DNA from: a phage
Reading direction: 5' to 3' (one strand)
Assembly (NCBI GenBank): GCA_023732985.1
Contig: GCA_023732985.1_3946.1
DNA: 64,000 nucleotides
This document shows positions 26,613 through 29,974 of this stretch, one piece after another; positions within the stretch are counted from its first letter, which is position 1; each line of letters starts with the position of its first letter. The position numbers were made by a program, and so were the translations under genes. A model generated the notes under the pieces. The model searched no databases and was not told where the DNA came from. It saw only the letters and a program-made list of their open reading frames with translations.

Positions 26613-26693
26613 TTTACAAGGGGCTTATAGTTCGATAGAGTAAGCCCCAGATAAAGAGCTTTACTAACTAACCTTAAACTAGGAGATTCTAAA
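26613..26693 (+). promoter_or_regulatory. leader module type A (hairpin GGGGCTTA...TAAGCCCC plus conserved initiation region)
   Basis: TTTACA overlapping hairpin 26620-26648; about 80 bp near-identical copies upstream of six ORFs. Confidence 0.55.
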
Positions 26694-27074
26694 ATGGCTT
26701 ATCGTGCACCGAAATTCATCAACAAAGACAACTTTCGCAACGTACTGGAGAAGGCACTTGATGAAAAATTTAAAGGTAACATTATTATTGTTCACTCATT
26801 CAATTTTAAGTATGACATCAACGGGAATAAAATCAACCATTACACGGCAACAATGATAGACGGTACGTTATCAAGTGAAAAAGCCGTACTGAATGCACTT
26901 GCTGGACGTGGTAAAAACCTGATAAGCTGCAATAAGAGACGTTATCAAGGTGGCGCATATGGTTATGATGATGCTGTTTACCATCTTGAAAATATGGGCT
27001 ATTCAGTGGAGAAAGCTGGAGCGTCTCAAATAATTGGTAGTGATGGTTATGTGACAATATTCAAAATTAACTGA
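26694..27074 (+). CDS. hypothetical protein (array ORF 3)
   Basis: type A leader. Confidence 0.5.
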   Translation: MAYRAPKFINKDNFRNVLEKALDEKFKGNIIIVHSFNFKYDINGNKINHYTATMIDGTLSSEKAVLNALAGRGKNLISCNKRRYQGGAYGYDDAVYHLENMGYSVEKAGASQIIGSDGYVTIFKIN

Positions 27075-27081
27075 TAAAGTA

Positions 27082-27162
27082 CTTTACAAGGGGCTTATAG
27101 TTCGATAAAGTAAGCCCCAGATAAAGAGCTTTACCACTCAATCCTAAATTGGAGATTCTAAA
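27082..27162 (+). promoter_or_regulatory. leader module type A
   Basis: hairpin 27090-27118 plus conserved initiation region. Confidence 0.55.
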
Positions 27163-27420
27163 ATGGCTATTATCAAAAACGTTGTAGTTCCTGCAAAAAC
27201 TCGTGATGACGCTCGCATCATGGCGAAAAAGTTAGGCGGGAAAGTTGTTGACAACGGAAAACAATCTGCTGTAAGATGGGGCGTAAAGGTTGATAAACAG
27301 TTAACCCTAAAACGCAGTTCAAACAACCTTTTTAAAGGTGTAAAATCACTCGGTAAAGTGAATGTTTTCACTAAAAAAGGTTATAAAATGCACTTATCAT
27401 TAACTGGCAATTTAATCTGA
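27163..27420 (+). CDS. small basic hypothetical protein (array ORF 4)
   Basis: type A leader. Confidence 0.5.
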   Translation: MAIIKNVVVPAKTRDDARIMAKKLGGKVVDNGKQSAVRWGVKVDKQLTLKRSSNNLFKGVKSLGKVNVFTKKGYKMHLSLTGNLI

Positions 27421-27427
27421 TAAAGTA

Positions 27428-27508
27428 CTTTACAGGGGGCTTAAAAGTTGATATCTTAAGCCCCAGATAAAGAGCTTTACCACTAAATCCTAAACTGGAG
27501 ATTCAAAA
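27428..27508 (+). promoter_or_regulatory. leader module type A (variant stem GGGGGCTTAA/TTAAGCCCC)
   Basis: hairpin 27435-27464; stem preserved by compensatory changes. Confidence 0.55.
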
Positions 27509-28021
27509 ATGAAAACTGTAGACGCTACTTTTGAAGTTGTAAAAGAAAAATTCACTATTGTTTATGAAGCTGTTAATTGCTTCGAAGCAAGCCATAATCT
27601 CGATAATTGGGAGTTTACAGATGACCATCAAGGCGGTGTGACTATTAAAAACCCCAACTGTCAGCGTAATGATTTTAAATATGCAACCCCTTTGCATTAC
27701 AGCCTTAAACAGCTTTCAAGTGACTATGCAAAACAGGGCCGGGAAAATCCATCAAAAGAGGCTTACACCAGCTTACAGAAAGAACTAGAAAGAGATTTAG
27801 AGGCTTCAGAATACAACCTTGCCGCGAAAGTTGTCGATGCAAATGGTCAAACAATTTTAGATAGTTTTTATATTGGTTACGCTTTCGATTGGTGCTATAG
27901 TGACGGCGATGATTTAGAGGATAGACTAAAAGAAGAGGTGAGCAATTCAGACGCAGAATCTGAAGTATTAGAACGTTTGGAATCATTAAAAGACTCAGTG
28001 ATGAATATCTTTAAGAACTAA
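27509..28021 (+). CDS. acidic hypothetical protein (array ORF 5)
   Basis: type A leader; Asp/Glu-rich. Confidence 0.5.
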   Translation: MKTVDATFEVVKEKFTIVYEAVNCFEASHNLDNWEFTDDHQGGVTIKNPNCQRNDFKYATPLHYSLKQLSSDYAKQGRENPSKEAYTSLQKELERDLEASEYNLAAKVVDANGQTILDSFYIGYAFDWCYSDGDDLEDRLKEEVSNSDAESEVLERLESLKDSVMNIFKN

Positions 28022-28029
28022 AGAGATTT

Positions 28030-28108
28030 CTTTACACGGGGCTATCAAGCTGATAAGATAGCCCCAGATAAAGAGATTTATCAACTGTCCTAAACTGGAG
28101 ATTCAAAA
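28030..28108 (+). promoter_or_regulatory. leader module type A (variant stem GGGGCTATC/GATAGCCCC)
   Basis: hairpin 28038-28065; stem preserved by compensatory changes. Confidence 0.55.
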
Positions 28109-28405
28109 ATGAAACTATCAAATAAAGTCCGTGAAAATCTAAGCAAGTTACTTAATAAAATTGATTTCATTGAAACATCAAGGAATAGTCATGATGTTAT
28201 GGAATGGTTACACGGAAAAATCAAAGGCCGTCGTGTAGTGATTTGCTTATGGAATAGTTGCAGGGAGTATAAAAAACCTGTATTGCAAGTCAATATTTAC
28301 GATGATACTTTTAAAAGCCCTGTAAAGTCTAAAAGCGATTTATTAGAATCTTATGAGATAACTGTAAGTGGCAAAGTATCACGTAAAGAGGAAACACCAT
28401 GTTAA
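28109..28405 (+). CDS. hypothetical protein (array ORF 6)
   Basis: type A leader. Confidence 0.5.
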   Translation: MKLSNKVRENLSKLLNKIDFIETSRNSHDVMEWLHGKIKGRRVVICLWNSCREYKKPVLQVNIYDDTFKSPVKSKSDLLESYEITVSGKVSRKEETPC

Positions 28406-28731
28406 TGACTGGTATCACTGCAATCATTGCCATTTTCGCGCTATATAAGGCATATAAAGCCTATAATCTAGCAAATAAGGCAATCACACAGCAGGTTAGC
28501 AATAACCTTGTAGAAAGCTTTCTAGGACGTCTCAGTGATGAGCAAATAAAGCGGCTAGAGATGAGCTTCAGATATAAAGCCAAAACCTATCAGATAAGTG
28601 ACATCTTCAAAGATGATTTTCAGTTAGTTGATGATTATAATTCTCTGATAAATGCTTTAAACATCAGTGACTTGAAAGACTATCATGCTGTAATTGTTCA
28701 AGAGTTGAGCAAACGAAAACAAAATTCTTGA
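28399..28731 (+). CDS. hypothetical membrane protein (array ORF 7)
   Basis: overlaps upstream stop; N-terminal hydrophobic helix. Confidence 0.5.
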   Translation: MLMTGITAIIAIFALYKAYKAYNLANKAITQQVSNNLVESFLGRLSDEQIKRLEMSFRYKAKTYQISDIFKDDFQLVDDYNSLINALNISDLKDYHAVIVQELSKRKQNS

Positions 28732-28819
28732 CACTGATTTTTAGATAGATTAAATTACACATCAACGGGGAGGGAATGACCTTCCCCACTAAATAAAATC
28801 CTAAACTGGAGATTCTAAA
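28728..28819 (+). promoter_or_regulatory. leader module type B (promoter, 5' hairpin GGGGAGGG...CCTTCCCC, conserved initiation region)
   Basis: TTGACA-17-TAAATT at 28728-28756; hairpin 28767-28787. Confidence 0.55.
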
Positions 28820-29092
28820 ATGTATACTACTAACAACGGTCGCACTTTAAATGTCACACTACGTCACTATGTAGATGGTGTCATGCACTTTGAAGACTTA
28901 CAAGCTGAACAACATATCTTAGATTGGCAAGTCGCAGGACTCCAAAAAACTGCTACCGGATACGGTAAAAAGATTCCAACCAGTTGGAAAGTACACTATG
29001 AAGGCCGTTTGCGCAGAATTTATCAGGATGTGCAAAGCAATAGTGCATCGAGTTACATTATAGTAAAAGGTAAAAAACTGCATTTAGTGTAA
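28820..29092 (+). CDS. hypothetical protein (array ORF 8)
   Basis: type B leader. Confidence 0.5.
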   Translation: MYTTNNGRTLNVTLRHYVDGVMHFEDLQAEQHILDWQVAGLQKTATGYGKKIPTSWKVHYEGRLRRIYQDVQSNSASSYIIVKGKKLHLV

Positions 29093-29097
29093 AGTAC

Positions 29098-29177
29098 TTT
29101 ACAGGGGGCTTATAGTTCGATAAAGTAAGCCCCAGATAAAGAGCTTTACCACTCAATCCTAAATTGGAGATTCTAAA
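29098..29177 (+). promoter_or_regulatory. leader module type A
   Basis: hairpin 29104-29133 plus conserved initiation region. Confidence 0.55.
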
Positions 29178-29582
29178 ATGGCTATTAATAACCGTGAATT
29201 ATCAATCTTAAAAGCACGCTTGACCGTTAATCGAATCAATATCATGACGTCATCAGCGCCTGATGAAACATTGCACAACATTATCGGAAAGATTCAAAGC
29301 GTTATCTTAGACGTTGAAAACGTAAAAAGTTCATTGGCTGACGTTGCAGCAGGTATCACGCTAGACGGTGCGCAATATGAAATGGCTGACATGTTAGGCA
29401 AATCGAAGGTAATGAATAAAGAGCTTGATTTAAAAATGTTTCGATTTGCCGTGAAAGTATGGTTATCTGTCGAGTATGACGCTAATTTTGCAATCGCTGA
29501 TTTCTTTGCCACTTGGTTACAACGTAATTTGACAAATCATGATTTTCGTGATGTCTGTGATGCAATTTATGCAGAACTTTAA
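29178..29582 (+). CDS. hypothetical protein (array ORF 9)
   Basis: type A leader. Confidence 0.5.
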   Translation: MAINNRELSILKARLTVNRINIMTSSAPDETLHNIIGKIQSVILDVENVKSSLADVAAGITLDGAQYEMADMLGKSKVMNKELDLKMFRFAVKVWLSVEYDANFAIADFFATWLQRNLTNHDFRDVCDAIYAEL

Positions 29583-29591
29583 AAAATTTTG

Positions 29592-29683
29592 TTGACACTG
29601 ATTTTTAGATAGATTAAATTACACATCAACGGGGAGGGAATGACCTTCCCCACTAAATAAAATCCTAAACTGGAGATTCTAAA
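29592..29683 (+). promoter_or_regulatory. leader module type B
   Basis: TTGACA-17-TAAATT at 29592-29620; hairpin 29631-29651; near-identical to the 28728 copy. Confidence 0.55.
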
Positions 29684-29881
29684 ATGGCTATTATTAACGG
29701 CTTACACATTGAAACAACTCACATCAAAGATATTAAAGTTGGTGATGTAGTCCTTTCCCACGGAGTAGAAAAAACAGTCACTGCAAAGGATATCAAAGAT
29801 GATTCTTTCATGGGTAGAACTCTCTTCGGTGATTCTTATTGCTTAGGTTATCTTGCAGTTTTAAAAGTTGTCAAAAATTAA
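29684..29881 (+). CDS. small hypothetical protein (array ORF 10)
   Basis: type B leader. Confidence 0.5.
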   Translation: MAIINGLHIETTHIKDIKVGDVVLSHGVEKTVTAKDIKDDSFMGRTLFGDSYCLGYLAVLKVVKN

Positions 29882-29893
29882 CTGATAAAGTAC

Positions 29894-29974
29894 TTTACAA
29901 GGGGTTTATAGTTCGATAAAGTAAGCCCCAGATAAAGAGCTTTACCACTAAATCCTTAAACTAGGAGATTCAAA
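29894..29974 (+). promoter_or_regulatory. leader module type A (stem with G-T wobble)
   Basis: hairpin 29901-29929, GGGGTTTA/TAAGCCCC; the mismatch is a G-U pair only in RNA. Confidence 0.55.

What the first reader, a model, noticed from the sequence alone, without database searches (positions are those of the whole stretch)
26620..29929. Type A leader hairpin is maintained by compensatory substitutions, including a G-U-only pair
The stem differs between copies while pairing is kept: GGGGCTTA/TAAGCCCC (26620-26648, 27090-27118, 29104-29133), GGGGGCTTAA/TTAAGCCCC (27435-27464) and GGGGCTATC/GATAGCCCC (28038-28065). The copy at 29901-29929 reads GGGGTTTA/TAAGCCCC, which pairs only as G-U in RNA. 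Covariation plus a wobble pair argues for selection on an RNA structure rather than on primary sequence. A related hairpin, GGGGCTAAATAGCCCC followed by AGATA, ends the array at 32635-32650. Candidate roles are an RNase III or other processing site, a mRNA stabiliser, or a T-tract-less attenuator.
Basis: seen in the sequence. Interest (0 to 1): 0.6.

Follow-up and report, generated by a model that had tools for sequence, protein, structure and literature searches.

The report
Promoter-embedded hairpin cassettes between phage early genes
The covarying hairpin is real, but it sits inside a repeated promoter cassette between small early genes of a Felix O1-like phage, a kind of element (PeSL) already described in T4-like phages, so it is a well-supported new example and not a new kind of RNA.

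Summary
The window is a Felix O1-like phage (Felixounavirus). All six hairpins are at the stated coordinates, and the pairing is under selection. In 56 distinct copies from three genera, 98.4% of stem cells pair (83.8% when shuffled). Four pairs show two-sided changes. Forty-two cells are G·U on the + strand, and none would be G·U on the - strand.

The hairpin is not a leader of the downstream gene's own mRNA. Each copy lies inside a sigma-70-type promoter. TTTACA is followed by a 17-nt spacer that holds the 5' arm. The -10 hexamer TAnnnT lies in the loop and is invariant in 52 of 52 copies. The 3' arm is the discriminator, and the predicted start is the A of AGATAAAG. The hairpin is therefore transcribed only by read-through from the upstream gene.

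It is also only the top of a ~63-nt three-helix hairpin whose lower stem pairs the -35 region with +4..+16.

The ~90-bp cassettes separate genes of unknown function, and gene insertions and deletions between related phages have their junctions in them. This matches the PeSL cassettes of T4-like phages in every feature I could test. The RNA's role (attenuator, 3' protection or RNase III-type processing) is inferred, not shown.

The parts
26605..26693 (+). [quoted passage not shown]
27075..27162 (+). Type A cassette 2. -35 27083-27088; upper hairpin 27090-27118; -10 TAAAGT 27106-27111; lower stem 27075-27086 with 27122-27133.
27421..27508 (+). Type A cassette 3, stem class GGGGCTTAA/TTAAGCCCC. 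-35 27429-27434; upper hairpin 27436-27464; -10 TATCTT 27452-27457, preceded by TGn; lower stem 27421-27432 with 27468-27479.
28022..28108 (+). Type A cassette 4, stem class GGGGCTATC/GATAGCCCC. -35 28031-28036; upper hairpin 28038-28065; -10 TAAGAT 28054-28059; continuous 11-bp lower stem 28024-28034 with 28069-28079, of different sequence from the other copies.
29090..29177 (+). Type A cassette 5, 99% identical to cassette 2. -35 29098-29103; upper hairpin 29105-29133; -10 29121-29126; lower stem 29090-29101 with 29137-29148.
29886..29974 (+). Type A cassette 6, with the U·G pair T29905·G29925. -35 29894-29899; upper hairpin 29901-29929; -10 29917-29922; lower stem 29886-29897 with 29933-29944.
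32635..32650 (+). End-of-array hairpin GGGGCT-AAAT-AGCCCC followed by AGATA. It has no -35, no -10 and no lower stem. It is conserved in relatives.
32663..32688 (+). Canonical intrinsic terminator (AGCTCC...GGGGCT followed by T7) that ends the gene array. It corresponds to terminator t23 of Felix O1.
28728..28819 (+). Type B cassette. Promoter TTGACA-17-TAAATT, then hairpin GGGGAGGG/CCTTCCCC (28767-28787) starting a few bases after the predicted start, then the shared ribosome-binding leader. Further copies at 29592-29683, 30815-30908, 31956-32046 and 32298-32375.
26135..26212 (+). First promoter of the array (TTGACA-17-TACTAT) with the shared ribosome-binding leader and no hairpin.

Best explanation
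Each type A element is a composite regulatory cassette of about 90 bp that separates two small early genes of a Felix O1-like phage.

**Layout, in order:**
- the stop codon of the upstream gene, within an A/T-rich stretch;
- a -35 hexamer TTTACA;
- a 17-nt spacer whose first part is the G-rich 5' arm;
- a -10 hexamer TAnnnT lying in the hairpin loop;
- the C-rich 3' arm, which serves as the discriminator;
- the predicted start at the A of AGATAAAGAG;
- a conserved 45-nt leader with the Shine-Dalgarno sequence GGAG and the ATG.

**Shown by sequence analysis:**
- the promoter signature;
- selection on pairing in the sense strand;
- the placement of the cassettes at gene-gain and gene-loss junctions.

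**Inferred:**
- Host RNA polymerase starts each downstream mRNA just 3' of the hairpin. The hairpin then exists only in RNA that reads through from the upstream gene.
- In that RNA it forms the top of a 63-nt three-helix hairpin that uncouples neighbouring genes. It could do this by attenuating read-through, by being cleaved in the internal loop (RNase III-type), or both. Either way the upstream mRNA is left with a protective 3' hairpin.
- Because the cassettes repeat every 0.3-0.9 kb, they also act as sites of homologous recombination. This recombination shuffles genes and homogenises the cassettes.

This is what PeSL (promoter-early stem-loop) cassettes do in T4-like phages.
For: **Promoter**
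- All six window copies score as TTTACA-17-TAnnnT.
- In 52 unique copies the hexamer at 17 nt (48 copies) or 18 nt (4 copies) is TAnnnT every time. Twelve different hexamers occur, and positions 3-5 vary freely. A TGn extended -10 motif precedes it in 30 of 52. The hexamer keeps register with the -35, not with the 3' arm.
- In Felix O1, ORF16 and ORF20 lie just downstream of its two type A repeats. Both are in the class that peaks 5 min after infection.

**Structure**
- Covariation and both controls are as given in the observation check.
- On the + strand 42 cells are G·U and none is A·C or C·A.
- RNAalifold and RNAfold independently give the extended three-helix hairpin, at -20 to -26 kcal/mol with z from -4 to -7. 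It also forms in Erwinia phage phiEa21-4.
- The lower stem is 97.4% paired, with two pairs changed on both sides and two + strand G·U pairs.
- The phage's other early promoters (type B and the one at 26135) have no G/C arms. Promoter function therefore does not require them.

**Recombination**
- Every gene insertion or deletion found between the window and Felix O1, JK55, garuso or allfine has its junction in a repeated type A cassette, type B cassette or ribosome-binding leader.
- The same gene carries different stem classes in different phages. Copies within one genome are homogenised.

**Match to PeSL**
- The published description of PeSLs matches.
- RB49 PeSLs read directly have the same layout.
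- All ten flanking genes tested belong to families of unknown function.
Against: - No transcript data exist for any of these phages in the literature I could search. Promoter activity and the fate of read-through RNA are therefore inferred.
- No U-tract follows the hairpin, so it is not a canonical intrinsic terminator.
- The -35 bases are also part of the lower stem. Their conservation does not count independently for the promoter.
- The stem classes spread by recombination between copies. The number of independent compensatory events is small, roughly five to seven, although many cells covary.
- The lower stem rests mostly on invariant pairs.
- Sequence homology to RB49 PeSLs is not shown. 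An nhmmer profile of type A finds nothing in 22 kb of RB49, and a type B profile gives one marginal hit at E=0.005.
Confidence: 0.65

Rival explanations
1. One reading: the hairpin is a 5' leader element of the downstream gene's mRNA. It would act as a 5' stabiliser or a leader processing site within that gene's own transcript.
For: The hairpin lies upstream of every downstream ribosome-binding site. In type B cassettes a similar G/C hairpin does sit at the 5' end of the predicted primary transcript. In read-through RNA the type A hairpin is formally in the 5' untranslated region of the next gene.
Against: The -10 hexamer is in the loop and the predicted start is 3' of the hairpin, so the cassette's own transcripts lack it. 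No conserved promoter lies upstream of the hairpin, because that sequence is the 3' end of different coding regions. A function at the 3' end of the upstream gene explains type A, type B and the promoter-less end-of-array hairpin together. A 5'-leader function does not.
Confidence: 0.12
2. A DNA-level element: the inverted repeat, or the two TAAAGnnCTTTA 12-mers that flank it, is an operator for a dimeric phage or host protein. Alternatively it extrudes as a cruciform and controls the embedded promoter.
For: The repeat overlaps the core promoter. The 12-mers are near-palindromes centred near -40 and +9, and they are strongly over-represented in the window, with 29 matches against 6.3 expected.
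Against: - Wobble pairs occur only on the + strand. They would be A·C mismatches on the other strand, which argues against a cruciform or a symmetric protein site.
- Inner stem positions differ between copies in one genome yet stay complementary. One protein reading these bases could not tolerate that.
- Loops of 10-13 nt disfavour cruciform extrusion (general knowledge).
- In cassette 4 the upstream 12-mer is no longer a palindrome, yet it still pairs with its downstream partner.
- Exact 12-mers occur only inside type A cassettes, apart from one site in a coding region.
Confidence: 0.07
3. A single-stranded DNA hairpin: the stem-loop forms in one DNA strand during replication or recombination. 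It promotes pausing or template switching, and that makes the cassettes recombination hot spots. RNA plays no part.
For: Cassettes are the junctions of gene gain and loss, and they are homogenised within genomes. The PeSL authors saw their stem-loops block DNA sequencing reactions, and they mapped one crossover within a loop. G·T pairs are tolerated in DNA hairpins.
Against: The favoured strand is the transcribed sense strand in every copy. The same bias is seen in type B hairpins and in the lower stem. Ordinary homologous recombination between ~90-bp repeats needs no hairpin. The promoter-less end-of-array hairpin is conserved where there is no repeat partner nearby.
Confidence: 0.08
4. No selection on structure: the arms are complementary by descent, and whole cassettes spread by gene conversion. 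The apparent covariation would then reflect a few inherited classes.
For: Cassettes clearly spread and homogenise by recombination. The shuffle control does not correct for relatedness (tool note).
Against: At least five stem classes differ at pairs 3, 7, 8 and 9 on both arms and are each fully complementary. One class has lost one base from each arm. Kolesnikvirus copies changed a core G-C to U-A. Slid registers, which keep relatedness, pair at most 55.8%. One-sided changes are all of the wobble-compatible kind.
Confidence: 0.05

Closest known systems
PeSL (promoter-early stem-loop) cassettes of T4-like phages RB49/phi1, PST/T4 and nt-1/KVP40 (Arbiol et al. 2010, PMC2839356; Comeau et al. 2014, PMC4122927)
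   Same: [quoted passage not shown]
- An A/T-rich stretch followed by a sigma-70-type promoter. The PST/T4 consensus -35 is TTTACW, and here it is TTTACA.
- A G-run/C-run stem-loop, with G·T pairs, placed between -35 and -10 or overlapping -10.
- A Shine-Dalgarno sequence at the 3' end.
- Clustering among small genes of unknown function.
- Gene gain and loss junctions inside the cassettes.
- RB49 PeSL199/198 has its hairpin across the -10, like type A.
   Different: - The host phage is an Ounavirinae (Felix O1-like) myovirus, not a T4-like phage.
- Type A has an additional 11-12 bp lower stem and a 3x3 internal loop. The RB49 PeSLs I folded lack these.
- Its apical loop is long, 10-13 nt.
- Sequence relatedness to RB49 PeSLs is not demonstrable.
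- Promoter activity, terminator activity and mini-circles were shown for RB49/phi1 and are untested here.
RNase III processing hairpins between T7 early genes (R0.3, R0.5, R1, R1.1, R1.3). Their positions are recalled from Dunn and Studier 1983, not verified in a paper here.
   Same: - Repeated hairpins between genes of an early region transcribed by host polymerase.
- An upper stem of about 9-13 bp, an internal loop and a lower stem, as folded here. The type A extended hairpin has the same plan.
- T7 promoters lie next to several of these sites.
- Cleavage leaves a 3' hairpin on the upstream mRNA (general knowledge).
   Different: - No sequence similarity to the T7 sites.
- The type A apical loop is much larger.
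- The promoter is inside the hairpin here, not beside it.
- Cleavage is untested.
Intrinsic (Rho-independent) terminators
   Same: A G/C-rich hairpin directly after a stop codon.
   Different: No U-tract follows the hairpin, and the consensus scan does not list these sites. The phage uses a canonical hairpin-plus-T7 terminator at the end of the array, 12 nt after the last hairpin.
REP-type intercistronic hairpins that protect upstream mRNA from 3' exonucleases (general knowledge, for example malE-malF in E. coli)
   Same: A repeated extragenic palindrome between genes of one transcription unit, with no U-tract, that could set different stabilities for neighbouring genes.
   Different: REPs are chromosomal, carry no promoter, and have a different sequence and size. 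This comparison was not tested here.

Membership tests
PeSL cassettes | [quoted passage not shown] | tested here: met
   Six copies of 88-90 bp, 77-99% identical over 98 nt. The cassette occurs at 1437 places in 289 phage records.
PeSL cassettes | A sigma-70-type early promoter (-35, about 17 bp, -10) within the motif | tested here: met
   TTTACA-17-TAnnnT in all six window copies. TAnnnT in 52 of 52 unique copies at 17 or 18 nt. This is sequence evidence only.
PeSL cassettes | An A/T-rich stretch upstream of the -35 that contains the upstream stop codon | tested here: met
   (TGA)TAAAGTAC directly precedes TTTACA.
PeSL cassettes | A stable G-run/C-run stem-loop, with G·T pairs, between -35 and -10 or overlapping -10 | tested here: met
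   The GGGG..CCCC stem spans the spacer, the -10 and the discriminator. Covariation is shown. RB49 PeSL199/198 has the same layout.
PeSL cassettes | A Shine-Dalgarno sequence and start codon at the 3' end | tested here: met
   CCTAAACTGGAGATTCTAAAATG is shared by all cassettes (families D3 and D5).
PeSL cassettes | Concentration in a variable region of small genes without known function | tested here: met
   Eleven cassettes lie in 6.4 kb among genes of 63-180 aa. Ten of ten tested match only PHROG families of unknown function.
PeSL cassettes | Gene insertions, deletions and replacements between related phages have their junctions in the cassettes | tested here: met
   All junctions against Felix O1, JK55, garuso and allfine fall in repeated type A, type B or leader segments. 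Stem classes are swapped between equivalent positions.
PeSL cassettes | Promoter and terminator activity in reporter assays, and cassette mini-circles | not testable with these tools
   These were shown for RB49/phi1 only.
PeSL cassettes | Sequence relatedness to the RB49/phi1 PeSLs | tested here: inconclusive
   Modules align in the same order, with short shared patches. The nhmmer type A profile finds nothing, and the type B profile gives one hit at E=0.005 on PeSL208/207.
RNase III processing hairpins (T7 early type) | An irregular hairpin of about two helical turns: upper stem, internal loop and lower stem, between early genes | tested here: met
   Predicted lower stem of 11-12 bp, a 3x3 internal loop and a 9-bp upper stem. 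T7 sites folded for comparison. This is prediction only.
RNase III processing hairpins (T7 early type) | Cleavage by host RNase III | not testable with these tools
   No transcript or enzymatic data were found.
RNase III processing hairpins (T7 early type) | Sequence similarity to the T7 sites | tested here: not met
   The T7 sites share CAAGGUC...GGCCUUUAUGAU, and type A has nothing similar.
Intrinsic terminator | A G/C-rich hairpin followed at once by a U-tract | tested here: not met
   The hairpin is followed by AGATAAAGAGC. No type A site appears in the terminator scan.
Rfam RNA families | A match to any curated covariance model at its gathering score | tested here: not met
   Only 24 tRNA matches in the window, and none in 26-33 kb.

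The most novel reading that the evidence does not exclude
A promoter and an RNase III-type processing hairpin are superimposed. The 3' side of the internal loop (AGA) coincides with the promoter's predicted start. Initiation at the cassette and cleavage of read-through RNA would then give each gene an mRNA with nearly the same 5' end. The upstream mRNA would keep a protective 3' hairpin. Such self-contained expression cassettes would also be the recombination modules that move genes within Ounavirinae, and perhaps between them and T4-like phages.
Probability: 0.2. Interest if true: 0.6.

Novelty: new member of a known kind. Interest (0 to 1): 0.4.

Why it matters
- PeSL-type cassettes would no longer be peculiar to T4-like phages. 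They would be a more general way for virulent enterobacterial phages to package small early genes as self-expressed, recombination-ready modules.
- This would explain two repeats that the Felix O1 genome paper listed in 2010 without comment.
- It would account for much of the gene-content variation among Felix O1-like phages, which are widely used for typing and therapy.
- The covariation and one-strand wobble pattern show, for any such cassette, that the stem-loop is selected as a sense-strand structure.
- The extended hairpin gives a concrete prediction that can be tested by experiment.

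Tried and rejected
- **Rfam scan of the whole window:** only tRNAs.
- **Terminator consensus scan:** no type A hairpin qualifies, because there is no T-tract.
- **A promoter upstream of the hairpin that would put it in the downstream gene's own leader:** the upstream sequence is the end of different coding regions. Only one copy (27051) has a -35-like hexamer, and TGnTAAAGT occurs in a minority of copies. 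Rejected.
- **RNase III acting on the 8-9 bp stem alone:** too short. Revived only for the extended hairpin.
- **Operator idea for the TAAAGnnCTTTA 12-mers:** exact copies occur only inside type A cassettes, plus one coding-region site. No independent support.
- **Literature searches for transcript start mapping or any functional description of these repeats in Felix O1-like phages:** nothing found. One search was badly framed and returned irrelevant papers.
- **Sequence homology to RB49 PeSLs by nhmmer:** marginal at best.
- **The first attempt to find the end-of-array hairpin with a fuzzy coding anchor:** mostly chance matches, with three true orthologues.

Full report
**Identity of the window.** The region 26-33 kb matches 259 phage records. 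The best matches are about 88% identical and cover the whole length. All are Felix O1-like myoviruses (Ounavirinae, Felixounavirus) of Escherichia, Salmonella, Shigella and Citrobacter. The finding lies in a + strand array of small genes (63-180 aa) from 26213 to 32624. Nearly every gene is preceded by a conserved intergenic unit.

- Two small corrections: the extra G at 27435 is unpaired, and the commonest stem extends to 9 bp through a U·G.
- As RNA the six copies fold at -12 to -16.7 kcal/mol, with z from -2.9 to -5.5 against dinucleotide shuffles.
- The copy with T29905 opposite G29925 folds at -12.0 kcal/mol on the + strand and only -5.4 on the - strand.

**Covariation in homologues.** To avoid selecting on the stem, I scanned IMG/VR with a pattern that specifies only the flanks, CTTTACA N26-34 AGATAAAGAG. 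I then read further copies from the fetched loci and from annotated relatives. I put the copies into a register anchored on both arms and counted pairs.
- With 41 distinct copies, 98.6% of cells pair, against 86.5±1.2 in shuffles. Three pairs change on both sides.
- With 56 distinct copies, including Erwinia phages of the genus Kolesnikvirus, 98.4% pair, against 83.8±1.0. Four pairs change on both sides:
  - pair 3, G-C or U-A;
  - pair 7, U-A or A-U;
  - pair 8, A-U or U-A;
  - pair 9, A-U, C-G, U-A, G-C or U·G.
- These two-sided changes fill 61 cells, against 18.5 expected. Sliding the 3' partner by 1-3 columns drops pairing to 55.8% or less.
- One stem class (GGGGCTATC/GATAGCCCC) has lost one base from each arm relative to GGGGCTTA/TAAGCCCC.
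- Among cells that depart from the commonest pair, 89 keep pairing and 8 break it.
- A caveat applies. The stem classes spread by recombination (see below), so the number of independent events is perhaps five to seven, not dozens.

**Which strand.** In the nine stem pairs, 42 cells are G·U or U·G on the + strand. None is A·C or C·A, which is what a wobble on the - strand would look like.
- The U·G at pair 5 is the commoner state (31 of 56 distinct copies). It occurs in several stem classes and in all six copies of Citrobacter phage KMM2.
- A second cassette type in phiEa21-4 has U-A at that position. This is the usual route C-G, then U·G, then U-A.
- The lower stem and the type B hairpin carry + strand-only G·U pairs as well.
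- The selected structure is therefore a single strand of the sense polarity, most simply RNA.

**The hairpin sits inside a promoter.**
- The consensus scan lists all six copies as TTTACA, 17 nt, TAnnnT.
- The 5' arm starts one base after the -35. The -10 hexamer lies in the loop and the top of the 3' arm. The rest of the 3' arm (A)AGCCCC is the discriminator.
- In 52 unique copies the hexamer at 17 nt (48 copies) or 18 nt (4 copies) is TAnnnT without exception. There are 12 different hexamers and free variation at positions 3-5. This is the known conservation pattern of the -10 element.
- TGn precedes the hexamer in 30 of 52 copies.
- The hexamer keeps its distance from the -35, not from the 3' arm. 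The discriminator is 7 nt in 42 copies and 6 nt in 10.
- The predicted start is the A of AGATAAAGAG, give or take a base or two.
- In Felix O1, the genes just downstream of its two type A repeats (ORF16 and ORF20) peak at 5 min after infection.
- A transcript made from the cassette's own promoter should therefore lack the hairpin. Only RNA reading through from the upstream gene contains it. In that sense 'leader hairpin' is the wrong name.

**The hairpin is the top of a larger structure.**
- RNAalifold on 28 natural cassettes, and RNAfold on single copies, pair the flanks. Upstream UAAAGU-A-CUUUA covers the stop-codon region and most of the -35. It pairs with downstream UAAAG-A-GCUUUA at +4 to +16.
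- The result is a 6-bp helix, a single mismatch, a 5-bp helix, a 3x3 internal loop (CAN opposite AGA), the 9-bp G/C stem and a 10-13 nt loop.
- The energies are -20 to -26 kcal/mol, with z from -4 to -7. The structure also forms in phiEa21-4.
- Cassette 4 has a different, continuous 11-bp lower stem.
- On the alignment the lower stem is 97.4% paired, with two pairs changed on both sides. Most of its pairs never vary, so this part is less secure.
- The whole is about 23 bp-equivalents. T7's intergenic RNase III sites, folded here for comparison, have the same plan of upper stem, internal loop and lower stem. I recalled the positions of the T7 sites from memory.

**What the cassettes do to the genome.**
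- Against Felix O1, the window has extra genes at 26213-26404, 26694-27420, 29684-30817 and 32047-32310.
- In each case the two alignment blocks overlap in Felix O1 by 19-90 nt. The overlap lies within a repeated type A cassette, a type B cassette or the shared ribosome-binding leader.
- JK55 lacks the segment from about 26100 to 26675, with one end in the leader of cassette 1. Garuso and allfine lack 32047-32310, again with the junction in a type B cassette.
- The same gene is preceded by different stem classes in different phages. Copies within one genome are often identical. Allfine and adrianh each have four of six identical over 47 nt. This points to frequent recombination between cassettes.
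- The stems stay matched in spite of that recombination, which is further evidence for selection on pairing.

**Comparison with what is known.**
- Arbiol et al. 2010 and Comeau et al. 2014 described PeSLs in T4-like phages. These are repeated units running from stop codon to start codon. They have an A/T-rich stretch, a sigma-70-type promoter and a G-run/C-run stem-loop with G·T pairs. The stem-loop most often lies between -35 and -10 or overlaps -10. A Shine-Dalgarno sequence ends the unit.
- PeSLs cluster among genes of unknown function in variable regions, and they mediate gene shuffling. One stem-loop acted as a terminator and one whole cassette as a strong promoter in lacZ assays.
- I read RB49 PeSLs directly. 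PeSL211/210 has its hairpin as the 17-nt spacer. PeSL199/198 has it across the -10, as in type A.
- Every defining feature I could test is met here (see the membership table).
- The differences are these:
  - the host lineage is Ounavirinae;
  - type A has the long lower stem and internal loop, which the RB49 copies lack;
  - no sequence homology can be demonstrated.
- The Felix O1 genome paper listed the type A and type B repeats only as 'direct repeats'. I found no paper linking PeSLs to Felix O1-like phages.

**Mechanism, and how sure I am.**
- Shown by sequence analysis: the promoter signature, sense-strand selection on pairing, and the cassettes as recombination junctions.
- Inferred: each gene is transcribed from its own cassette promoter. 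In read-through RNA the extended hairpin uncouples neighbouring genes.
- The hairpin is not a canonical terminator. No U-tract follows it, and the phage places a canonical terminator 12 nt after the last hairpin of the array.
- Attenuation, a block to 3' exonucleases, and cleavage in the internal loop are all possible. I cannot separate them.
- The promoter-less end-of-array hairpin, which is conserved in relatives together with AGATA, suggests that the hairpin has an RNA role of its own.
- Rivals that I rate low:
  - a true 5' leader function;
  - a DNA operator or cruciform, which the one-strand wobble and the within-genome stem variety argue against;
  - a single-stranded DNA hairpin that promotes recombination, which is not excluded;
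  - complementarity by descent alone.

**Verdict.** The element is a new member of a known kind, a PeSL-type promoter/stem-loop cassette in Felix O1-like phages. It has one feature not reported for PeSLs, the extended hairpin that encloses the promoter.

Noticed in passing
window 28728-28819, 29592-29683, 30815-30908, 31956-32046, 32298-32375: Five type B cassettes. Each has a canonical promoter (for example TTGACA-17-TAAATT), then ACACATCAAC, then the hairpin GGGGAGGG/CCTTCCCC starting a few bases after the predicted start, then the shared ribosome-binding leader. This hairpin also contains a + strand-only G·U pair. In 42 variants it is nearly always more stable on the + strand. It has no flanking lower stem.
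   Followed up: partly
window 32630-32688: The end-of-array hairpin has a type B-like 5' flank (CAACGGGG) and a type A-like 3' flank (GCCCCAGATA), as if it were a recombinant remnant. It is conserved in relatives. A canonical terminator follows it, and that terminator's stem itself varies with compensation between phages.
   Followed up: partly
L127 (phiEa21-4) 6651-6719, 9138-9215, 9543-9614: Kolesnikvirus has a second cassette type, GGGGTTAT..ATAACCCC followed by GTCGAAAC, with -35 TTTACA or TTGCAA and -10 GATTAT. Pair 5 is U-A. The stretch CCCC(A/G)TCGAAAC resembles RB49 PeSL199/198.
   Followed up: partly
L131 (RB49) PeSLs compared with window cassettes: The translation-start region GGAGAATCAAAAATG of RB49 PeSLs is very like CTGGAGA(A/T)TC(T/A)AAAATG of the Felix-like cassettes. 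ACACATCAA follows the -10 both in RB49 PeSL211/210 and in type B. This could be convergence or exchange. The nhmmer support is only marginal (E=0.005).
   Followed up: partly
window 25815-25960 and 25983-26014: The 470-nt non-coding gap upstream of the array contains three copies of AAAATCATTTTnnAAnnnGTGCAG(G/A) and a pyrimidine tract CCCCTCTCCCCCTCTTACTCCCCCTCTCCCC. They lie between the terminator of the phosphatase gene and the first array promoter.
   Followed up: no
window 32700-34300: A non-coding stretch of about 1.6 kb packed with short direct repeats of CTTGTTA(A/G)-like units. Relatives annotate repeat_region features here, and the BPS15Q2 record ends within it. It may be a genome terminus or a replication or packaging region.
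   Followed up: no
window 31283-31408: Two tandem promoter-like sites (TTGACG-17-TACATT and TTGCAA-17-TATAGT), with a 43-nt direct repeat, lie upstream of the gene at 31451. There is no cassette hairpin here.
   Followed up: no
window 43987-49366: An array of 24 tRNA genes on the + strand.
   Followed up: no
GenBank GU169904.1 (hit H27): A record named Staphylococcus phage SA1 carries a type A cassette 98.9% identical to the window's, at five places. This suggests that the record contains Felix O1-like sequence.
   Followed up: no
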